Source: Escherichia coli O127:H6 str. E2348/69
GTDB taxonomy: Bacteria > Pseudomonadota > Gammaproteobacteria > Enterobacterales > Enterobacteriaceae
Length of the DNA: 64,000 nucleotides
Assembly: GCF_000026545.1 (NCBI RefSeq)
Contig: NC_011601.1
Reading direction: 5' to 3' (one strand)
Every line of letters starts with the position of its first letter. The first letter of the stretch is position 1. The notes under the pieces are model-generated. The model saw only the letters and a program-made list of their open reading frames with translations, did not search any database and was not told the DNA's origin. The translations under genes and the position numbers were made by a program. This document shows positions 18,371 to 60,983 of the stretch, one piece after another.

Positions 18371-19081
18371 AAATGCGCCTATAAGGCTCTCTTACCAGCC
18401 GCGCCCTAACAGGCGCACACGATCTGACATTTGCATCCAACTTCGTTACTTACGGCCCGTAAACGGGCTGCCCGGATAGGGAATCGATAACTGCTCTCCC
18501 ATTTTATCCTCTTCAAGCTGGTGCTTTATGTAATCCTGTATCTTCGCCGTGTTCTTACCCACCGTATCGACGTAATACCCTCTGCACCAGAACTCCCTGT
18601 TCCTGTACTTGAATTTCAAATCACCAAACTGCTCGTAAAGCATCAGACTGCTTTTCCCTTTCAGATATCCCATAAAGCCGGATACGCTCATTTTGGGCGG
18701 GATCTCCACAAGCATATGGATATGATCTGCACAGCATTCAGCTTCCAGAATCCGTACACTTTTCCACTCACACAGCTTTCTCAAAATACAGCCTATTGCT
18801 CTACGCTTCTCTCTGTAGAACACCTGTCTTCGGTATTTTGGCGCAAATACTATGTGATATTTACAGTTCCATCGGGTGTGCGCTAAGCTCTTTTCGTTCC
18901 CCATTGGGACCCCCTTTTGATTTCTTGTTTGACACTTGCAGTTGCCAGACCGCAAGGTGTTTTAACAAATCAAAAGGGGTTTTAATAACTGGCTCAAAGC
19001 TGAAAGCTTTCCGGAACCCCCAGCCTAGCTGGGGGTTTTCTGTGCACAAAAATGGATGGTGCTAATTGCACCATCCCCTTT
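18371..19081 (-). mobile_element. IS200 insertion sequence (IS200/IS605 family); boundaries approximate, about +/-20 bp
   Basis: About 0.7 kb carrying a single Y1-transposase gene, with the two left-end hairpins typical of IS200 (19054..19077 and 19015..19037); fills an add-ydgJ spacer that is short in K-12 as I recall. Confidence 0.8.
18446..18904 (-). CDS. tnpA: IS200 transposase TnpA (HUH/Y1 family)
   Basis: 152 aa from MGNEKSLAHTRWNCKYHIVFAPKYRR...HIHMLVEIPPK; closely resembles Salmonella IS200 TnpA; the ORF track gives a longer 169-aa frame. Confidence 0.9.
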   Translation of the reverse strand: MGNEKSLAHTRWNCKYHIVFAPKYRRQVFYREKRRAIGCILRKLCEWKSVRILEAECCADHIHMLVEIPPKMSVSGFMGYLKGKSSLMLYEQFGDLKFKYRNREFWCRGYYVDTVGKNTAKIQDYIKHQLEEDKMGEQLSIPYPGSPFTGRK

Positions 19082-37938: not shown

Positions 37939-39950
37939 TGAACGCATCGTCATGGTCCTTGCGCAATTTGCCCTGGTTCAGGGCCACGCTGGCGCAATGG
38001 CGTTATGCGTTACGCAATACCATTGCCATGTGTCTGGCGCTGACGGTTGCCTATTATTTGAATCTGGATGAACCCTATTGGGCGATGACCTCGGCTGCGG
38101 TGGTTAGCTTTCCCACCGTTGGCGGTGTCATCAGCAAAAGCCTCGGACGCATCGCTGGCAGTTTGCTCGGAGCCATTGCGGCACTGCTTCTTGCCGGACA
38201 TACGCTCAATGAGCCGTGGTTTTTTCTATTGAGCATGTCGGCGTGGCTTGGCTTTTGTACCTGGGCCTGTGCGCACTTCACGAATAACGTCGCGTATGCA
38301 TTTCAACTGGCGGGCTACACGGCTGCCATCATCGCCTTTCCGATGGTTAATATTACTGAAGCCAGCCAGCTGTGGGATATCGCTCAGGCGCGTATTTGCG
38401 AGGTGATAGTCGGTATTTTGTGCGGCGGCATGATGATGATGATCCTGCCGAGCAGTTCCGATGCTACAGCCCTTTTAACCGCATTGAAAAACATGCACGC
38501 CCGATTACTGGAACATGCCAGTTTACTCTGGCAGCCTGAAACAACCGATGCCATTCGTGCTGCACATGAAGGGGTGATTGGGCAGATACTGACCATGAAT
38601 TTGCTGCGTATCCAGGCTTTCTGGAGCCACTATCGTTTTCGCCAGCAAAACGCACGCCTTAATGCGCTGCTCCACCAGCAATTACGTATGACCAGTGTCA
38701 TCTCCAGCCTACGACGTATGTTGCTCAACTGGCCCTCACCGCCAGATGCCACGCGAGAAATTCTCGAACAACTGCTGACGGCGCTCGCCAGTTCGCAAAC
38801 AGATGTTTACACCATCGCACGTATTATCTCCCCACTACGCCCGACCAACGTCGCCGACTACCGGCACATCGCCTTCTGGCAGCGACTACGTTATTTTTGC
38901 CGCCTTTATCTGCAAAGTAGTCAGGAATTACATCGTCTGCAAAGCGGTGTAGATGATCATGCCAGACTCCCACGGACATCCGGCCTGGCTCGTCATACCG
39001 ATAACGCCGAAGCTATGTGGAGCGGGCTGCGTACATTTTGTACGTTGATGATGATTGGCGCATGGAGTATTGCTTCACAATGGGATGCCGGTGCCAATGC
39101 TTTAACGCTGGCAGCAATTAGCTGCGTACTCTACTCCGCCGTCGCGGCACCGTTTAAGTCGTTGTCACTGCTGATGCGCACGCTGGTGTTACTTTCGCTA
39201 TTCAGCTTTGTGGTCAAATTTGGCCTGATGGTGCAGATTAGCGATCTGTGGCAATTTTTACTGTTTCTCTTTCCACTGCTGGCGACAATGCAGCTTCTTA
39301 AATTGCAGATGCCCAAATTTGCCACACTGTGGGGGCAACTAATTGTTTTTATGGGTTCGTTTATCGCTGTCACTAATCCCCCGGTGTATGATTTTGCTGA
39401 TTTTCTTAACGATAATCTGGCAAAAATTGTTGGCGTCGCGTTGGCGTGGTTAGCGTTCGCCATTCTGCGTCCAGGATCGGATGCTCGTAAAAGCCGCCGC
39501 CATATTCGCGCGCTACGCCGGGATTTTGTCGATCAACTAAGCCGCCATCCAACACTGAGTGAAAGCGAATTTGAATCGCTCACTTATCATCACGTCAGTC
39601 AGTTGAGTAACAGCCAGGATGCGCTGGCTCGCCGTTGGTTATTACGCTGGGGTGTAGTGTTGCTGAACTGTTCTCATGTTGTCTGGCAATTGCGCGACTG
39701 GGAATCGCGTTCCGATCCGTTATCGCGAGTACGGGATAACTGTATTTCACTGTTGCGGGGAGTGATGAGTGAGCGTGGCGTTCAGCAAAAATCACTGGCG
39801 GCCACACTTGAAGAATTACAGCGGATTTGCGACAGCCTTGCCCATCATCATCAACCTGCCGCCCGAGAGCTGGCGGCAATTGTCTGGCGGCTGTACTGCT
39901 CGCTTTCGCAACTTGAGCAAGCACCGCCGCAAGGTACGCTGGCTTCTTAA
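37938..39950 (+). CDS. ydhK: putative efflux transporter YdhK (FUSC family)
   Basis: 670-aa membrane ORF, translationally coupled to ydhJ. Confidence 0.88.
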
Positions 39951-40472
39951 TTACTTAATTACACCACAGGCATAGCGTTCACCGCCACCGCCCAGCGGTT
40001 TGGGTTGATCGGACATATTATCGCCGCCAACGTGGACCATCAGCGCTTTGTCTTTGACTTCATCCAGTGATTTCAGACGAGGCGCGATGACGGCATCGGT
40101 CGCCTTGCCGTCATTATTGACTACCAGTGCAGGCAGATCGCCTAAATGCCCGGCACCTTCTGGCCCTTCATGTTTACCGGTATTTTGTGGATCAAGATGC
40201 CCGCCTGCGGATTCTGCGGCGCTGGCTTTGCCATCTTTGGTGGCTGGCTGGCAGCTTCCTTTGGCATGAATATGGAAGCCATGTTCACCGGGAGGTAATG
40301 CTTTCAGATCGGGCGAAAACTCCAGACCTTTATCGGTTTCAGTAATGGTGACGCTACCAATTGACTGCCCAACTCCTTGCGACGTGACGAGGTTCATCTC
40401 GACTTTTTCACTGGCAGCTTGTGCGCCGGTCGCAACAACCAGCGCCAGAATGGCCAGACTAAAACGTTTCAT
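39951..40472 (-). CDS. sodC: periplasmic Cu/Zn superoxide dismutase
   Basis: 173 aa from MKRFSLAILALVVATGAQA; conserved GFHIH and GGGGERYACGVI motifs. Confidence 0.95.
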   Translation of the reverse strand: MKRFSLAILALVVATGAQAASEKVEMNLVTSQGVGQSIGSVTITETDKGLEFSPDLKALPPGEHGFHIHAKGSCQPATKDGKASAAESAGGHLDPQNTGKHEGPEGAGHLGDLPALVVNNDGKATDAVIAPRLKSLDEVKDKALMVHVGGDNMSDQPKPLGGGGERYACGVIK

Positions 40473-44903: not shown

Positions 44904-45132
44904 ATGGCAAATAATCCAAACCCTTCATCGCCCCTGCCGGACGTGTTTTCACCGGCGACCCGCGACTGGTTTCTTCGCGCCTTTAAACAGCCGACAGCTG
45001 TCCAGTCGCGAACCACGGCTGCGCTTTACGCTAACAGAAGTGAATGACCTACCGGTCCGGCAAACGCCGATGTTTACGCGGTTACGTGAGGCGGGATTTT
45101 CAAGTTCGCCACAAGGGCTGGATTGGGGATAG
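44904..45132 (+). pseudogene. lhr: remnant of ATP-dependent helicase Lhr: 5' 102 bp and 3' ~127 bp joined out of frame
   Basis: ATG at 44904 encodes MANNPNPSSPLPDVFSPATRDWFLRAFKQPTAVQ, the Lhr N-terminus as I recall it, then stops after 47 codons; the +1 frame gives a C-terminus-like ...VRQTPMFTRLREAGFSSSPQGLDWG* ending at 45132. Confidence 0.7.
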
Positions 45133-48716: not shown

Positions 48717-48881
48717 GCCTTATCTCCACCTCTTAGCGTCATTACGCGATATTCATTAAAGTGGCGAAAGCATGACAGTAATCACAAAAAAATGAAAATA
48801 ACAAAAAGAGAAAACACTTTTGCCATTTTGCTAACAAACAGGAAGGAGATGCGAGGGAGAACGCGCTCCCTCGAGAGGAAA

Positions 48882-48971
48882 TCAGTGCAGCGCGGCAGTC
48901 AAACCCACGGCTACGATCAAACCGAGGACGATAATCGTTGTTACCAGTGAAAATTTAAGGTCGGTGCTCAT
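48882..48971 (-). CDS. ynhF: small membrane protein YnhF (29 aa)
   Basis: Minus-strand MSTDLKFSLVTTIIVLGLIVAVGLTAALH*, below the ORF-track size cutoff; followed by hairpin gagggag..ctccctc at 48853..48872. Confidence 0.7.
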   Translation of the reverse strand: MSTDLKFSLVTTIIVLGLIVAVGLTAALH

Positions 48972-49209
48972 CAAGTTTTCTCCTTTTTTATTACCACACA
49001 AAAAGTGATATTACGCATTTTTACACACTGTGATGAAAAAATCTCCCGTCATTTATAATGATAAGTGTTTTTACTACTTCCCCTTTTCGTCAAGATCGGC
49101 CAAAATTCCACGCTTACATTATTTGCGTACTGGCCATTGACCCCTTCCTGACGCTCCGTGTCGTTTTTCCGGCGTACCGCAACATTTTTGTTGTGCGTAA
49201 GGTGTGTAA

Positions 49210-49225
49210 AGGCAAACGTTTACCT
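49210..49225. promoter_or_regulatory. PurR box O1 (purR autoregulation)
   Basis: aggCAAACGTTTacct matches the PUR-box core, about 50 bp upstream of the purR start. Confidence 0.6.
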
Positions 49226-49269
49226 TGCGAATTTGCAGGAGCTGAAGTTAGGGTCTGGAGTGAAATGGA

Positions 49270-50295
49270 ATGGCAACAATAAAAGATGTAGCGAAACGAG
49301 CAAACGTTTCCACTACAACTGTGTCACACGTGATCAACAAAACACGTTTCGTCGCTGAAGAAACGCGCAATGCCGTGTGGGCAGCAATCAAAGAATTACA
49401 CTACTCCCCTAGCGCGGTGGCGCGTAGCCTGAAGGTTAACCACACCAAGTCTATCGGTTTGCTGGCGACCAGCAGCGAAGCGGCCTATTTTGCCGAGATC
49501 ATTGAAGCAGTCGAAAAAAATTGCTTCCAGAAAGGTTACACCCTGATTCTGGGCAATGCGTGGAACAATCTTGAGAAACAGCGGGCTTATCTGTCGATGA
49601 TGGCGCAAAAACGCGTCGATGGTCTGCTGGTGATGTGTTCTGAGTACCCAGAGCCGTTGCTGGCGATGCTGGAAGAGTATCGCCATATCCCAATGGTGGT
49701 GATGGACTGGGGTGAAGCAAAAGCTGACTTCACCGATGCGGTCATTGATAATGCATTCGAAGGCGGCTACATGGCCGGGCGTTATCTGATTGAACGCGGT
49801 CATCGCGAAATCGGCGTTATCCCTGGCCCGCTGGAACGTAACACCGGCGCAGGCCGCCTTGCCGGTTTTATGAAGGCGATGGAAGAAGCGATGATCAAAG
49901 TGCCGGAAAGCTGGATTGTGCAGGGTGACTTTGAACCTGAATCCGGTTACCGCGCCATGCAGCAAATCCTGTCGCAGTCGCATCGCCCTACTGCCGTCTT
50001 CTGTGGTGGCGATATCATGGCAATGGGCGCACTTTGTGCTGCTGATGAAATGGGTCTGCGCGTGCCGCAGGATGTTTCGCTGATCGGTTATGATAACGTG
50101 CGCAACGCCCGCTATTTTACGCCGGCGCTGACCACGATCCATCAGCCAAAAGATTCGCTGGGCGAAACAGCGTTCAACATGCTGTTGGATCGTATCGTCA
50201 ACAAACGTGAAGAACCGCAGTCCATTGAAGTGCATCCGCGGTTGATTGAACGCCGCTCCGTGGCTGACGGCCCGTTCCGCGACTATCGTCGTTAA
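49270..50295 (+). CDS. purR: purine repressor (LacI family)
   Basis: 341-aa ORF starting [33 protein letters not shown]. Confidence 0.97.
49298..49313. promoter_or_regulatory. PurR box O2 (inside the purR coding region)
   Basis: gagCAAACGTTTccac, a second PUR-box-like site 29 bp into the CDS. Confidence 0.55.
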
Positions 50296-51224
50296 TCACC
50301 CGTTGCGGGAGTCTCTTCCGGCTCCCGCAGCCACTCCTTATTCAGCGTCTCACTATCGCCGAGATACTCAAGCAACCAGGTTAACGCAGGCGACATATCA
50401 TTTTGCTGCCATGTCAGACAACATGCCGAATCCGGGAAGGGGTTTTCCAGTTCTAGTGCTACCCACTTCCCCTCATTAAGCCACGGTTTGGCGAAATGTG
50501 TTGGCACCATCCCTATGCATAATCCTGCCGAGATACAGGTTGCCGATGATTCCCAGTCAGGCACGACAAGTCTTTTTTGGTTATCCAGCAACCAGGTAAT
50601 ACGTTTAGGTAGCGTTCGCGAGGTGTCTTCGCGCACCAATGACGGCCAGTTGCGCAACGTATCATCGCTGAACGGGCCATCCATCAACGCCAGCGGGTGG
50701 TGGCTGGCAACAACGCAACTCCAGCTTAACATCCCCATATCCCGGAAGGCATAACGACCGCCTACCGGAATCGCGCGTGTTGCGCCAATCGCCAGTTCCA
50801 CGCGCCCGTCGGAAAGTGCATCCCAGACACCGTTGAACACTTCCTGAAAGACAAGAAGTTCGACATCATCAAAATGGCGATAAAAATCAACGATCATCTG
50901 CCGTGTTCGCTCTGGCCTGACAATATTATCCACTGCGATAGCTAACTGACCGCGCCAGCCGTTCGCTATCTGCTGACATTGCTGGCGGGTGATCTGCATT
51001 TTTTTGACAACAGAGCGTCCTTCTTTGAGAAACCACGCCCCGGCAGCGGTCAGTTCCACATCACGGTGACGTCGTTCAAAAAGCGGCACCGCCAGCCACT
51101 CTTCCAGCTGACGCACGGTATAGCTGACCGCAGAAGGGACGCGATGCAACTCCTGGGCTGCGGCGCTAAAACTACCATTACGCGCTACCGCATCAACAAC
51201 TTCCAGAGAATATTCTGACCACAT
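50292..51224 (-). CDS. punR: LysR-family transcriptional regulator PunR (YdhB)
   Basis: 310 aa with LysR HTH; divergent from punC; stop codon overlaps the purR stop. Confidence 0.9.
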
Positions 51225-51336
51225 AGTCTGCCTGCAAAATTTTTGAAACCAATCATCAAATATTACCGTTTCACAACACTAATTTCACTCCCTACACTTT
51301 GCGGCGGTGTTTAATTGAGAGATTTAGAGAAAATAC

Positions 51337-57935: not shown

Positions 57936-58012
57936 GCGTCCGTAGCTCAGTTGGTTAGAGCACCACCTTGACATGGTGGGGGTCGGTGGTTCGAGTCCAC
58001 TCGGACGCACCA
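57936..58012 (+). tRNA. valW: tRNA-Val (anticodon GAC), tandem second copy
   Basis: 77 nt, near-identical to the preceding copy (acceptor stem GCGTCCG), 4-nt spacer. Confidence 0.95.
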
Positions 58013-58045
58013 GATTTTCTTAATCTGGTCTTCTCTCTTCTTTTT
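58009..58045 (+). terminator. terminator after the tRNA-Val pair
   Basis: accagatt-ttctt-aatctggt hairpin followed by a T-rich tract. Confidence 0.6.
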
Positions 58046-58123
58046 TCCTCTGTTTCTTCCCTGTATCCAATGCGTTAAAAGATTTACACTGTCTCCTTAT
58101 GCGTTATCAGAAGGAGAATCGCT

Positions 58124-58429
58124 ATGGCAACTTTGTTACAACTTCATTTTGCTTTTAATGGCCCATTTGGAGATGCAATGGCTGAGCAGCTTAAACCGCT
58201 TGCTGAGTCGATTAACCAGGAACCTGGTTTTCTCTGGAAGGTATGGACCGAAAGTGAAAAGAACCACGAAGCCGGTGGGATCTACCTTTTCACTGATGAA
58301 AAAAGCGCCCTTGCCTATCAGGAAAAACGCACTGCCCGACTGAAAAATCTCGGCGTTGAGGAAGTGGTCGCCAAAGTTTTCGATGTCAATGAGCCTCTGA
58401 GTCAACTCAATCAGGCAAAACTCGCCTGA
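58124..58429 (+). CDS. ydhR: putative monooxygenase YdhR
   Basis: 101-aa ORF starting [22 protein letters not shown]. Confidence 0.9.
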
Positions 58430-58554: not shown

Positions 58555-60159
58555 ATGAAAAAAATTGCTATTGTGGGTGCCGGGCCTACGGGGATCTACA
58601 CCTTATTCTCGCTTCTACAGCAACAAACGCCACTTTCAATTTCTATCTTCGAGCAGGCTGACAAAGCCGGTGTCGGGATGCCATACAGTGATGAGGAAAA
58701 CTCAAAAATGATGCTGGCAAATATTGCCAGTATTGAAATCCCGCCGATTTATTGTACGTATCTCGAATGGCTACAAAAGCAAGAAGCCAGCCATCTCCAA
58801 CGTTATGGCGTTAAAAAAGAAACCTTGCACGATCGTCAATTTTTACCGCGAATTCTGCTGGGCGAATATTTCCGCGATCAATTTTTACGATTAGTAGACC
58901 AGGCACGACAGCAAAAATTTGCAGTGGCTGTTTATGAATCATGCCAGGTTACCGATCTGCAAATTACAAATGCTGGCGTCATGCTCGCTACAAATCAGGA
59001 TTTACCCAGCGAGACGTTTGATTTAGCGGTGATCGCAACGGGGCACGTCTGGCCTGATGAAGAAGAAGCAACCAGAACGTATTTTCCCAGCCCGTGGTCA
59101 GGCCTGATGGAAGCAAAGGTCGATGCGTGTAACGTGGGTATTATGGGAACATCCTTGAGCGGACTGGATGCGGCAATGGCAGTGGCTATTCGGCATGGTT
59201 CGTTCATTGAAGATGATAAACAACACGTCACTTTTCACCGCGATAACGCAAGTGAAAAGCTAAATATTACGTTAATGTCGCGCACAGGTATTTTACCCGA
59301 AGCCGATTTCTATTGCCCTATTCCCTACGAGCCCTTACACATCATCACTGATCAGGCATTAAATGCTGAGATTCAAAAAGGCGAAGTGGGCCTTTTGGAT
59401 CGGGTATTTAGATTGATAGTAGAGGAAATCAAGTTTGCTGATCCAGACTGGAGCCAACGCATAGCCTTAGAGAGCCTGAATGTCGATTCCTTTGCTCAAG
59501 CCTGGTTTGCCGAGCGCAAACAACGCGACCCATTTGACTGGGCAGAAGAAAATCTCCAGGAAGTCGAACGCAATAAACGAGAAAAACACACTGTTCCCTG
59601 GCGTTATGTCCTTCTGCGCATGCATGAAGCCGCACAGGAAATTGTTCCGTATCTGAATGAACACGACCATAAACGGTTCAGTAAGGGCCTTGCCCGGGTT
59701 TTCATCGATAATTATGCCGCAATCCCTTCAGAGTCTATTCGTCGACTACTGGCCTTGCGTGAAGCAGGAATCATTCATATTCTCGCTCTCGGTGAAGACT
59801 ACGAAATGGAAATTAATGAGTCGCGCACCGTCCTGAAAACGGAAGACAACAGCTACTCGTTTGACGTTTTTATTGATGCCCGCGGGCAGCGTCCGCTTAA
59901 AGTGAAAGATATTCCTTTCCCAGGGCTACGCGAACAATTACAGAAAACAGGCGATGAAATACCGGATGTTGGCGAAGATTATACATTACAGCAACCCGAA
60001 GATATTCGTGGGCGCGTAGCGTTCGGCGCGTTGCCCTGGTTGATGTACGACCAGCCTTTCGTTCAGGGACTTACGGCATGTGCAGAAATTGGTGAGGCGA
60101 TGGCTCGGGCGGTCGTAAAACCTGCATCCCGTGCGCGTCGGCGTCTTTCGTTTGATTAA
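58555..60159 (+). CDS. ydhS: FAD/NAD(P)-binding protein YdhS
   Basis: 534 aa, N-terminal dinucleotide-binding motif IAIVGAGPTG. Confidence 0.9.
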   Translation: MKKIAIVGAGPTGIYTLFSLLQQQTPLSISIFEQADKAGVGMPYSDEENSKMMLANIASIEIPPIYCTYLEWLQKQEASHLQRYGVKKETLHDRQFLPRILLGEYFRDQFLRLVDQARQQKFAVAVYESCQVTDLQITNAGVMLATNQDLPSETFDLAVIATGHVWPDEEEATRTYFPSPWSGLMEAKVDACNVGIMGTSLSGLDAAMAVAIRHGSFIEDDKQHVTFHRDNASEKLNITLMSRTGILPEADFYCPIPYEPLHIITDQALNAEIQKGEVGLLDRVFRLIVEEIKFADPDWSQRIALESLNVDSFAQAWFAERKQRDPFDWAEENLQEVERNKREKHTVPWRYVLLRMHEAAQEIVPYLNEHDHKRFSKGLARVFIDNYAAIPSESIRRLLALREAGIIHILALGEDYEMEINESRTVLKTEDNSYSFDVFIDARGQRPLKVKDIPFPGLREQLQKTGDEIPDVGEDYTLQQPEDIRGRVAFGALPWLMYDQPFVQGLTACAEIGEAMARAVVKPASRARRRLSFD

Positions 60160-60170
60160 AGGTAAATCTA

Positions 60171-60983
60171 TCAGCACTCAACAAACTGATGTTGTTCATT
60201 AAGACGATAGCGGACTCCGGCTCGAATATTGTTTTCACCTTCAATGGCGACGGCGAAGCGAACTCTTTCGCCGTCATGATATGCCAGTGCGGCGCATCCC
60301 CCTGGCCCGAGAATAATTGAGTCGACCACGCCCGTGCTCACTACTGTTGAATTTTCACCGCTGGCAATGATGTGTACATTGTCGCCGCTGTTGGCAATTC
60401 TGGCGTTTGCGCCAAAGCTGGCGATTTGCACCAGGTCACCATTACTGGCGACATGACACCGTTCACCCAATGTACAAACGCGTACTCGCATTCCGGTATT
60501 CGCAATCCGACTGCTATCTCCAGCGCTGCTTATCCGCGAAGAATTACCGGTTACAGCAACCCGTGCGCGTGCACCGGAGCTGCCAATGTGACTGTTAAAG
60601 CCGACACATCCAATCCGCACGCTATAACCCATACTGGCAATTTGCGCGGCATACCCAGCGGTTGCGATTCTGGCGTTATCCTCACAACAGCCGATGCGAG
60701 CATGATCGTCGCTGCGGGCAAACTGACTGCAAAATAGTCGTTCTCCGGGATCTGTGGCCAGTTTTTGCATAGAAGAAACTTCCTGATGCGCGAAGTTTTC
60801 ATCCGCCAGCCATTTTTTCCACGCATACTCAACCAGACTCTCCGCCCAGTCCGTATATCCTTCCTCAATTAGTGCATGATGAATATCGGCATAACTACCG
60901 CCACGTGGGAAATGGCGCAGAAACCAGCGATACATCACCGCTCCGATACGCCATTCTCGCAGGTCTGCTCGTGTAATGATCAT
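60171..60983 (-). CDS. ydhT: FNR-regulated protein YdhT
   Basis: 270-aa ORF at the conserved position in the ydhYVWXUT cluster. Confidence 0.85.
   Translation of the reverse strand: MIITRADLREWRIGAVMYRWFLRHFPRGGSYADIHHALIEEGYTDWAESLVEYAWKKWLADENFAHQEVSSMQKLATDPGERLFCSQFARSDDHARIGCCEDNARIATAGYAAQIASMGYSVRIGCVGFNSHIGSSGARARVAVTGNSSRISSAGDSSRIANTGMRVRVCTLGERCHVASNGDLVQIASFGANARIANSGDNVHIIASGENSTVVSTGVVDSIILGPGGCAALAYHDGERVRFAVAIEGENNIRAGVRYRLNEQHQFVEC

What the first reader, a model, noticed from the sequence alone, without database searches (positions are those of the whole stretch)
50292..50295. purR and punR converge with overlapping stop codons
The purR stop (50293..50295) and the punR stop (50292..50294, minus strand) share two bases, leaving no intergenic room for terminators. 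Each transcript must end inside the other gene, giving scope for transcriptional interference or antisense effects. ydhK and sodC are similarly abutted, with stops at 39948..39950 and 39951..39953.
Basis: seen in the sequence. Interest (0 to 1): 0.2.

Follow-up and report, generated by a model that had tools for sequence, protein, structure and literature searches.

The report
purR–punR overlapping stops, shared hairpin
Two E. coli purine-regulator genes that face each other really do end on the same four bases (TTAA), but this is a common, already annotated kind of overlap: punR's reading frame simply runs through the conserved hairpin that marks the end of the purR message until it meets the mirror image of purR's stop codon.

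Summary
purR (49270..50295, +) and punR (50292..51224, -) share TTAA at 50292..50295, and ydhK/sodC abut at 39948..39953. RefSeq annotates the same geometry in K-12, and the junction is nearly invariant across 5,423 E. coli genomes.

It is not unusual. The 4-nt convergent class is described in the literature.

"No room for terminators" is misleading. A 12-bp hairpin (50302..50331) lies inside punR's last codons. It covaries across 78 Enterobacteriaceae. Two published 3'-end data sets place the purR mRNA end 2-3 nt after it, 38-39 nt into punR, with about 10% read-through.

In many genera punR stops in the hairpin loop (303 aa), leaving a 14-22 nt spacer. Where that stop is missing, as in E. 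coli, the frame runs seven poorly conserved codons to the TTAA backstop.

Antisense or interference effects remain untested; the pair is listed in a published RNA-seq "excludon" catalogue. Verdict: real, ordinary, already known, low interest.

The parts
49270..50295 (+). purR coding sequence (341 aa, LacI-family purine repressor); stop TAA at 50293..50295
   Evidence: ORF list. RefSeq annotation. NCBIfam PurR equivalog NF007979 matched over 1-341/341.
50292..51224 (-). punR (ydhB) coding sequence (310 aa, LysR-family activator of punC); stop TAA is the reverse complement of 50292..50294
   Evidence: ORF list. RefSeq annotation. Pfam HTH_1 at 7-62 and LysR_substrate at 88-290. NCBIfam PunR equivalog NF008294 covers residues 1-300 only.
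50292..50295 (.). TTAA tetramer that supplies both stop codons (a bidirectional stop, or 'backstop')
   Evidence: Read directly in the sequence. The same tetramer class (TTAA/CTAA/CTAG) occurs at this junction in 27 of 78 Enterobacteriaceae loci and in Serratia and Erwinia. The class is described in PMC2174442.
50302..50331 (+). Hairpin at the 3' end of the purR mRNA. It has a 12-bp stem (50302..50313 with 50320..50331, two G-U pairs) and a 6-nt loop (50314..50319). The perfect 8-bp inverted repeat is 50304..50311 with 50322..50329. It lies inside punR codons 299-307.
   Evidence: Inverted repeat found. Fold energy -26.6 kcal/mol on the + strand, z = -5.9, 0 of 200 shuffles as stable; the - strand version is weaker (-21.7, z = -2.4). 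Covariation across 78 loci: 11 of 14 pairs change on both sides, score 0.296 against 0.143 for shuffles (0/500) and at most 0.107 for slid controls. In the core stem there are 51 G-U cells in purR sense against 9 A-C cells. The sequence is unique in the window.
50333..50334 (+). Mapped 3' end of the purR transcript, transferred from K-12 coordinates 1738907/1738908. It lies 2-3 nt after the stem and 38-39 nt past the purR stop.
   Evidence: Term-seq 'primary, antisense' 3' ends in Adams et al. 2021, supplementary file 1. Coordinate transfer checked on identical K-12 sequence. SMRT-Cappable-seq transcript end at 1738908 for the unit starting at 1737687: 120 of 266 reads (M9) and 92 of 143 reads (rich) end there, 24 and 15 pass through, and the median read-through is 36.5 and 30.5 nt.
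50295..50315 (-). punR codons 304-310 (E-T-P-A-T-G-D), a poorly conserved tail encoded by the left arm of the hairpin plus the spacer. Codon 304 (GAG, 50313..50315) is the position where 45 other species carry the punR stop, in the hairpin loop.
   Evidence: Mean pairwise identity is 0.31 for the tail against 0.91 for residues 1-303 among 28 proteins of 310 aa. Stop positions per locus. The PunR family model ends at residue 300.
49113..49113 (+). purR transcription start (K-12 1737687), giving a monocistronic unit 49113..50334
   Evidence: SMRT-Cappable-seq supplementary data. The K-12-minus-window offset of 1688574 holds for cydH, purR, punR and punC.
51253..51253 (-). punR transcription start (K-12 1739827); its 3' end is not mapped
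   Evidence: SMRT-Cappable-seq operon table lists b1659 alone from 1739827, reverse strand. The M9 TTS rows read show no reverse-strand end between 1718034 and 1784696. b1659 is absent from the whole TTS file. No minus-strand Term-seq end appears at this junction.
39948..39953 (.). Abutting stops of ydhK (+, TAA 39948..39950) and sodC (-, reverse complement of 39951..39953): TAATTA, zero spacer
   Evidence: The same arrangement is annotated in K-12. A Rho termination region at K-12 1723937 (-) lies 197 nt past the sodC stop, antisense in ydhK.
459..462 (.).
   Evidence: Annotation and sequence. A Rho termination region at K-12 1684895 (-) lies 290 nt past the fumC stop, antisense in tus.

Best explanation
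The stop-stop overlap is a by-product of tight gene packing around one conserved RNA element. It need not be a device in its own right.

Shown:
(1) Directly after the purR stop lies a GC-rich hairpin that is kept by compensatory changes across Enterobacteriaceae.
(2) Steady-state purR transcripts end 2-3 nt after it, with little and short read-through.
(3) The right arm of the hairpin is also the codons for the conserved PunR residues W-L-R-E-P. The left arm is either non-coding or encodes a fast-evolving tail.
(4) In about 45 of 78 species punR stops inside the hairpin loop (303 aa), leaving a 14-22 nt spacer before the purR stop.
(5) In E. coli, most Citrobacter, Salmonella and several other lineages that loop stop is absent (TAA/TAG in those species, GAG in E. 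coli). There the frame continues seven codons to TTAA or TTAG, the reverse complement of 'Y + purR stop'.

Inferred:
- The hairpin acts in the purR-sense RNA, as a 3'-end stabiliser, a weak terminator, or both. Polymerases are released at or shortly beyond it, by weak intrinsic termination, Rho or collision. 3'-5' exonucleases then trim back to the stem.
- The loop stop has been lost or regained repeatedly, because loop mutations do not harm the hairpin.
- The 4-nt overlap appears only when the spacing puts punR in the one frame that the purR stop can catch.
- punR transcripts, which are rare, probably run untranslated into antisense purR and are stopped by Rho, as seen for sodC and fumC in this window.
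For: Geometry and annotation. Hairpin stability. Covariation with shuffle and slide controls. Per-sequence folds of 79 junctions all place a hairpin of 8-14 pairs (median 11) at the same spot. Strand asymmetry of wobble pairs (51 G-U against 9 A-C). purR 3' end by Term-seq and by SMRT-Cappable-seq at the same nucleotide, with 9-10% read-through and a median of 30-37 nt. Two stop states and conserved spacing. Tail identity 0.31 against 0.91 for the body. PunR family model ends at residue 300. Backstop logic (8 of 12 loci with a 17-nt spacer would land on TTAR if the loop stop were lost; most loci with 16-, 18- or 19-nt spacers would run 23-330 codons into antisense purR). At least 9 state changes on a rough tree. 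Independent -4 overlaps with different tails in Serratia (CTAG, 314 aa) and Erwinia (CTAA, 304 aa); a 138-nt overlap in a Yersinia genome where the frame misses the backstop. Published generalities: the 4-nt convergent class and its origin by stop-codon mutation; stable U-poor stem-loops at the 3' ends of Rho-dependent transcripts, also inside downstream coding regions, with C>G downstream. The first ~100 nt after the purR stop are 36-38% C and 18-21% G.
Against: The mechanism that releases polymerase is not resolved. There is no U-tract, so the consensus terminator scan does not call the hairpin. No bicyclomycin-sensitive region is listed for purR or ydhB. The very short read-through could instead mean efficient local termination. 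The covariation alignment was registered using each sequence's own fold, which leans towards the structure, and its cells are not phylogenetically independent. The direction of evolution (loop stop ancestral) rests on midpoint rooting of a two-protein NJ tree, and the outgroups are heterogeneous. The punR 3' end is unknown. Nothing here excludes an added regulatory role for the overlap.
Confidence: 0.8

Rival explanations
1. Regulatory excludon. The overlap exists to make purR and punR expression mutually antagonistic, through polymerase collisions and/or RNase III cleavage of the sense-antisense duplex. This would link repression of purine synthesis (PurR) to activation of purine-nucleoside uptake (PunR/PunC).
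For: purR-punR is in the ExcludonFinder catalogue of 165 E. coli convergent excludons. Both proteins regulate purine metabolism, and the purR-punR-punC context is conserved. purR transcripts demonstrably cover punR's last 13 codons. PurR-regulon genes and punC are reported as inversely correlated.
Against: No experiment on this pair was found. The catalogue's criterion is met almost automatically by overlapping CDSs. The purR-side overlap is short (39 nt, about 10% read-through). Both genes are low-expression regulators, and punR ends were not detectable. The stop-stop overlap itself is evolutionarily labile. The inverse correlation is already explained by PurR and PunR/Nac acting at promoters.
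Confidence: 0.12
2. Bidirectional collision terminator of the Ju/Wang type. The hairpin forms on both strands, pauses polymerases coming from either side, and head-on plus trailing collisions release them. This would give both genes overlapping, defined 3' ends without a U-tract or Rho.
For: The element lies between convergent genes, lacks U-tracts on both strands, and folds on both strands (-26.6 and about -20 kcal/mol). The published description of such terminators matches this anatomy. No Rho-dependent region is listed here.
Against: G-U against A-C asymmetry indicates selection on the purR-sense RNA only, and the minus-strand fold is weak (z = -2.4). In E. coli the punR-sense hairpin lies inside translated codons, where ribosomes would unwind it. 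No punR 3' end is mapped. punR is so weakly transcribed that collisions should be rare, yet purR ends are sharp. The SEnd-seq site list could not be consulted.
Confidence: 0.15
3. Ordinary intrinsic (Rho-independent) terminator of purR that happens to sit in punR coding sequence.
For: A strong GC-rich stem-loop directly after the stop. A sharp 3' end in two data sets with low read-through. In about a third of E. coli convergent overlaps one gene has such a terminator inside the partner's coding sequence. Pantoea and Yersinia have U-tailed hairpins at the homologous position.
Against: The nine bases after the stem (CACUCCUUA) have 3 U, so the consensus scan does not report it. The mapped end is only 2-5 nt after the stem, not 7-9 nt. 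The downstream sequence is fixed by PunR codons.
Confidence: 0.2
4. Annotation artefact: one of the two stops is not the true end of the protein.
For: The last 10 PunR residues lie outside the curated family model and are poorly conserved.
Against: There is no in-frame stop in punR before 50292..50294. PurR is full length against its equivalog. The 111-nt junction is at least 99% identical in 5,393 of 5,423 E. coli genomes.
Confidence: 0.02
5. The inverted repeat is a DNA binding site for a dimeric regulator, not an RNA structure.
For: A perfect 8-bp inverted repeat with a 10-bp spacer, next to two regulator genes.
Against: The arm sequences change freely between genera while complementarity is kept. 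Loop length varies and G-T pairs are tolerated on one strand only, which is the signature of RNA pairing rather than sequence-specific DNA recognition.
Confidence: 0.03

Closest known systems
Four-nucleotide convergent (tail-to-tail) gene overlaps using CTAA/TTAA/CTAG/TTAG (Lillo & Krakauer 2007, PMC2174442)
   Same: Exactly this geometry: two stops sharing two bases in a TTAA tetramer. The proposed origin, loss of one gene's stop and extension to the next available one, matches the comparative pattern here. E. coli was counted as having 58 convergent overlaps.
   Different: Nothing essential. Here the earlier stop position can be pinpointed in the loop of the neighbour's 3' hairpin, and the toggling can be followed across genera.
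Protective 3' stem-loops of Rho-dependent transcripts (Dar & Sorek 2018, PMC6061677)
   Same: A stable GC-rich stem-loop without a U-tract. The steady-state 3' end lies immediately after it. It can sit inside the downstream gene's coding region, with C>G composition downstream.
   Different: Rho dependence and exonuclease trimming are not shown for purR. No bicyclomycin-sensitive region is listed, and read-through is short.
Overlapping bidirectional terminators between convergent genes, e.g. ynaJ-uspE (Ju et al. 2019; Wang et al. 2023; bioRxiv 10.1101/2022.10.23.513370)
   Same: A convergent pair, a hairpin in the overlap, no canonical U-tract, and no evidence of Rho dependence.
   Different: Only one of the two 3' ends is mapped. 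Wobble-pair asymmetry points to function on one strand. The hairpin is translated in punR.
Convergent excludons (Sesto et al. 2013 concept; ExcludonFinder 2025, PMC12288877); arfA-mscL tail-to-tail antisense regulation in E. coli (PMC10070815)
   Same: Overlapping 3' transcription of neighbouring convergent genes. This pair, ydhK-sodC, tus-fumC and ydhS-ydhT are all listed in the catalogue.
   Different: Reciprocal expression or RNase III processing has not been shown for purR-punR, and the overlap on the purR side is only about 39 nt.

Membership tests
4-nt convergent stop-stop overlap | Two real protein-coding genes on opposite strands whose CDSs overlap by exactly 4 nt | tested here: met
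   ORFs and RefSeq annotation in two strains. Family models for both proteins.
4-nt convergent stop-stop overlap | The tetramer is one of CTAA, TTAA, CTAG, TTAG | tested here: met
   TTAA at 50292..50295. The class is defined in PMC2174442.
4-nt convergent stop-stop overlap | Arises by loss of one gene's stop and extension to the next in-frame stop | tested here: met
   Forty-five species have the punR stop 21 nt upstream at the homologous codon, with the same spacing. The added 7 codons are poorly conserved. The state changed at least 9 times. The direction of change is inferred.
Intrinsic (Rho-independent) terminator | GC-rich stem-loop downstream of the stop | tested here: met
   12-bp stem, -26.6 kcal/mol, z = -5.9.
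Intrinsic (Rho-independent) terminator | U-rich tract of 7-8 nt immediately after the stem | tested here: not met
   The stem is followed by CACUCCUUAUUC. The consensus scan, which needs 5 T in 8, does not report it.
Intrinsic (Rho-independent) terminator | Factor-independent release of polymerase in vitro | not testable with these tools
   Needs in vitro transcription.
Protective 3' stem-loop of a Rho-terminated transcript | Steady-state 3' end immediately after a stable stem-loop that lacks a U-tract | tested here: met
   The 3' end is at 50333/50334, 2-3 nt after the stem.
Protective 3' stem-loop of a Rho-terminated transcript | C-rich, G-poor sequence downstream (rut-like) | tested here: met
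   C is 0.36-0.38 and G 0.18-0.21 in the 78-nt windows that start 0-26 nt after the purR stop. This is a weak criterion.
Protective 3' stem-loop of a Rho-terminated transcript | Read-through increases with bicyclomycin, and longer 3' ends appear in pnp/rnb mutants | tested here: inconclusive
   No purR or ydhB entry in the Rho-region table of Adams et al.. Coverage may be limiting. No exonuclease-mutant data were available.
Bidirectional collision terminator | Located between convergent genes, with a hairpin able to form on both strands | tested here: met
   -26.6 kcal/mol (+ strand) and about -20 kcal/mol (- strand).
Bidirectional collision terminator | Overlapping, defined 3' ends of both convergent transcripts | tested here: inconclusive
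   The purR end is mapped. No punR end appears in the Term-seq or SMRT-Cappable-seq tables. SEnd-seq tables are not held.
Bidirectional collision terminator | Termination depends on transcription from the opposite promoter | not testable with these tools
   Needs promoter deletions.
Excludon | Overlapping transcription of neighbouring opposite-strand genes | tested here: met
   The purR mRNA covers 39 nt of punR. The pair is listed in the catalogue.
Excludon | Expression of one gene lowers expression of the other, via interference or RNase III | not tested
   No data on this pair were found.

The most novel reading that the evidence does not exclude
The conserved hairpin is more than a purR 3'-end cap. 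It would be a shared pause and termination element through which purR and punR transcription exclude each other, so that cells switch between repressing purine synthesis and activating purine-nucleoside uptake. On this reading the loop-stop/TTAA toggle tunes how far ribosomes on punR mRNA invade the structure.
Probability: 0.08. Interest if true: 0.4.

Novelty: already known. Interest (0 to 1): 0.13.

Why it matters
It matters little. The overlap is annotated, its class has been described since the 2000s, the purR 3' end inside punR is in published 3'-end tables, and the pair is in a published excludon list. This check adds a clean worked example of how such overlaps arise. A neighbour's 3' hairpin is under RNA-level selection, the other gene's stop sits in its loop, and when that stop is lost the frame is caught by the palindromic TTAA. 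The example is useful for annotation, because variable C-terminal tails of convergent genes can be hairpin-encoded by-products. It is also a caution against reading regulatory meaning into zero-spacer convergent junctions.

Tried and rejected
- A plain MAFFT alignment of the 78 junctions (A1) anchored the coding right arm but put the left arms out of register, so it was not used for pair counts.
- A first gapless-register alignment chosen by maximum pair count mis-registered bulged Klebsiella/Raoultella stems. It was replaced by a register taken from each sequence's own fold, padded with N so that MAFFT kept it.
- The consensus promoter/terminator scan does not call the hairpin. It gives minus-strand terminator-like sites at 50172..50156 and 50166..50154, 120-140 nt past the punR stop. 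I considered these as punR terminators but set them aside: 7 sites were found against 4.2 expected, they lie in conserved purR codons, and no 3'-end data support them.
- Supplementary tables were not held for ExcludonFinder, Choe 2022, the Rend-seq annotation paper or Dar & Sorek 2018. Ju et al. 2019 and Wang et al. 2023 (PMC versions) are not held. Whether this site is on the SEnd-seq bidirectional-terminator list is therefore unknown.
- Counting TTAA in the window was uninformative: 270 found against 270.5 expected.
- Rfam has no family at the junction.
- The repeat-element reading (REP-like) was rejected because the hairpin sequence is unique in the window.

Full report
**1. Observation**

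The window is the E. coli E2348/69 chromosome, 100% identical to NZ_LT827011.1. At 50287..50299 the + strand reads CGT CGT TAA TCA C.

- purR is the ORF 49270..50295 (+). punR is the ORF 50292..51224 (-).
- The purR stop is TAA at 50293..50295. The punR stop is the reverse complement of TTA at 50292..50294. Both stops come from one TTAA, and the CDSs overlap by 4 bp.
- RefSeq annotates exactly these ends in E2348/69 and in K-12 MG1655 (purR 1737844..1738869, punR 1738866..1739798).
- PurR matches its NCBIfam equivalog end to end (1-341/341). PunR matches its equivalog over 1-300/300 and has no earlier in-frame stop. Neither end is an artefact.
- A 111-nt stretch around the junction is at least 99% identical in 5,393 of 5,423 complete E. 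coli genomes.
- The side remark is also right. The ydhK stop (39948..39950) and the sodC stop (39951..39953) abut as TAATTA, and K-12 has the same arrangement.

**2. Is it unusual?**

No. The annotated window holds 12 convergent junctions with spacers of -4, 44, 111, 43, 46, 0, 50, 145, -4, 39, 40 and 11 nt.

- Lillo & Krakauer (PMC2174442) counted 58 convergent overlaps in E. coli.
- They attribute convergent overlaps mainly to stop-codon mutation.
- They note that in about a third of the E. coli overlaps one gene has a Rho-independent terminator inside the partner's coding sequence.
- TTAA itself is not enriched in the window.

**3. What lies at the junction**

Eight nucleotides after the purR stop, a perfect 8-bp inverted repeat begins (50304..50311 with 50322..50329).

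- As RNA it extends to a 12-bp stem, 50302..50313 with 50320..50331, with a 6-nt loop.
- The fold energy is -26.6 kcal/mol on the purR strand (z = -5.9; 0 of 200 shuffles as stable). The punR-strand version is weaker (z = -2.4).
- The sequence is unique in the window, and no Rfam family covers it.
- It is not followed by a U-tract, so the consensus terminator scan ignores it.
- On the other strand the hairpin is punR codons 299-307 (L-R-E-P-E-E-T-P-A).

**4. Published 3'-end data**

- Term-seq (Adams et al. 2021, PMC7815308, supplementary file 1) lists a 'primary, antisense' 3' end for purR at K-12 1738907 in one tab and 1738908 in another.
- On the identical K-12 sequence these map to window 50333/50334. 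That is 2-3 nt after the stem and 38-39 nt past the purR stop.
- SMRT-Cappable-seq (Yan et al. 2018, PMC6131387, Supplementary Data 1) independently defines a monocistronic purR unit from TSS 1737687 to TTS 1738908.
- In M9, 120 of 266 reads end exactly there, 24 pass through, and the median read-through is 36.5 nt. In rich medium the figures are 92 of 143, 15 and 30.5 nt.
- So the purR message does end inside punR, but cleanly and only about 39 nt in.
- No punR 3' end appears in the tables searched. punR has a mapped start at 1739827 only.
- For the two other zero-spacer pairs, the same Term-seq study lists bicyclomycin-sensitive (Rho) termination regions on the minus strand. One is 197 nt past the sodC stop, antisense in ydhK. 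The other is 290 nt past the fumC stop, antisense in tus.

**5. Comparative evidence**

A scan of species-representative genomes returned 80 punR loci, of which 78 also hold purR convergent to it.

- Two main states occur. In 27 loci PunR has 310 aa and overlaps purR by 4 nt (TTAA or TTAG). These include Escherichia, most Citrobacter, Salmonella, Trabulsiella, Silvania, Leclercia and Pluralibacter gergoviae.
- In 45 loci PunR has 303 aa and its stop lies 21 nt upstream, leaving a spacer of 14-22 nt (45 nt in one locus). These include Klebsiella, Raoultella, Enterobacter, Kosakonia, Kluyvera and Lelliottia.
- A few loci have 307-309 aa with spacers of 1-5 nt.
- Every junction folds into a hairpin of 8-14 pairs (median 11) at the same place, although the arm sequences differ widely.
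- In the 303-aa state the punR stop sits in the hairpin loop.
- On a structure-registered alignment of 78 junctions, 11 of 14 pairs change on both sides (100 cells). The covariation score is 0.296, against 0.143 ± 0.008 for shuffles (0/500) and at most 0.107 when partners are slid. Cells paired are 74.7%, against at most 47% when slid.
- Right-arm changes that alter PunR (REP to RAP, RTP or QEP) are matched by left-arm changes, including where the left arm is non-coding. Protein coding therefore cannot explain the pairing.
- In the core stem there are 51 G-U cells in purR sense against 9 A-C cells, which would be G-U in punR sense. This indicates that pairing is selected in the purR transcript.
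- Caveats: the register came from each sequence's own fold, and cells are not phylogenetically independent.

**6. The PunR tail**

- Among 28 proteins of 310 aa, residues 304-310 have a mean pairwise identity of 0.31, against 0.91 for residues 1-303. There are 7 different residues per column, against 1.6 for residues 1-296.
- The curated PunR model ends at residue 300, and the LysR substrate domain ends at about residue 290.
- The recurring Pro-Ala in the tail is simply the complement of the Leu-Arg-Glu codons of the other arm.
- The tail therefore looks like a by-product of reading through the left arm of the hairpin.

**7. Why exactly TTAA**

- All 78 aligned purR genes end in CGY plus a stop, TAA in 73 of them, so the opposite strand usually carries TAA or TAG in one frame.
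- If the loop stop is removed in silico, 8 of the 12 loci with a 17-nt spacer land on that backstop after 7 codons.
- Most loci with 16-, 18- or 19-nt spacers would instead run 23-330 codons into antisense purR.
- A rough NJ tree with Fitch parsimony needs at least 9 changes of state.
- Outside the family, Serratia plymuthica (CTAG, 314 aa) and an Erwinia (CTAA, 304 aa) also show the 4-nt overlap, with unrelated tails. A Pantoea has a 72-nt spacer with a U-tailed hairpin.
- One Yersinia pseudotuberculosis genome has a 376-aa annotated PunR that overlaps purR by 138 nt, because its frame misses the backstop.

**8. Mechanism**

Shown: the hairpin is conserved by compensatory change, and the purR mRNA ends at it with little read-through.

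Inferred: it works in the purR RNA as a 3'-end stabiliser and/or weak terminator. How polymerase is released is open, and three readings remain.

- *Efficient local termination.* The short read-through and the absence of a listed bicyclomycin-sensitive site would also fit this.
- *Collision-driven bidirectional terminator.* The anatomy resembles the published description. The strand asymmetry, translation of the punR-sense hairpin and the rarity of punR transcripts argue against it.

**9. Interference or antisense effects**

purR-punR, ydhK-sodC, tus-fumC and ydhS-ydhT are all in the ExcludonFinder list of E. coli convergent excludons. The criterion there is overlap of RNA-seq-defined transcript boundaries, which overlapping CDSs nearly guarantee. 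Convergent cases could not be validated with p19 dsRNA capture. The PunR paper discusses no coupling with purR beyond conserved context. The idea is therefore plausible, already catalogued, and untested.

**10. Verdict**

The finding is a real but ordinary, already annotated feature. The only modest addition from this check is the covarying hairpin with a stop codon that toggles between its loop and the TTAA backstop.

Noticed in passing
window 459..462: tus (+) and fumC (-) also share a TTAA stop-stop overlap, as in K-12 (1685185..1688). A published Rho termination region lies 290 nt past the fumC stop, antisense in tus.
   Followed up: partly
window 60159..60171: ydhS (+) and ydhT (-) are convergent with only an 11-nt spacer. 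The pair is also in the published excludon list.
   Followed up: no
window 48879..49269 (-): A full-length Rfam match to sRNA STnc550 (388 bits) covers the cydH (ynhF) small-protein gene and runs up to the base before the purR ATG. The purR 5' UTR (TSS at about 49113) therefore overlaps a divergent transcript. Term-seq also lists 3' ends 11 nt upstream of the purR ATG and 108 nt inside purR (K-12 1737833 and 1737952).
   Followed up: no
window 44904..45132: Two short pseudogene fragments (endonuclease; ATP-dependent helicase) lie between rnt and grxD. The K-12-minus-window offset changes by about 4.4 kb between ydhK (1684183) and purR (1688574). This is consistent with loss of most of a large gene here in E2348/69; a published K-12 table row places lhr in this interval.
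   Followed up: partly
window 18446..19037: An IS200C transposase gene with an adjacent Rfam STnc490 (Hfq-binding RNA) match lies between add and ydgJ.
   Followed up: no
window 6679..7944 (-): uidC is annotated as a pseudogene (internal stop) in this strain.
   Followed up: no
window 49396..50235 (-): A 279-codon stop-free antisense ORF lies inside purR. It is not evidence of a gene. It illustrates why a punR frame that misses the TTAA backstop can run far into purR.
   Followed up: partly
L089:2501-3631 (Yersinia pseudotuberculosis): punR is annotated as 376 aa and overlaps purR by 138 nt. The frame reads through two hairpins and the purR stop (TCA in frame). It is unclear whether this is typical of Yersinia or a strain variant.
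   Followed up: partly
L036 (Enterobacter sp. kpr-6), junction region: The purR-punR spacer is 45 nt because of an insertion that carries a second hairpin (GCCTGCGG...CTGCAGGC) upstream of the conserved one.
   Followed up: no
window 57974..58140 (-): An Rfam match to 'HPnc0260 antisense RNA' lies opposite and just downstream of the second of the two tRNA-Val genes. It is probably a tRNA-antisense family artefact.
   Followed up: no
window 39947..39950: The ydhK stop is also preceded by T (TTAA), so it too is a bidirectional stop. sodC does not use it, because its own stop comes one codon earlier in its frame.
   Followed up: yes
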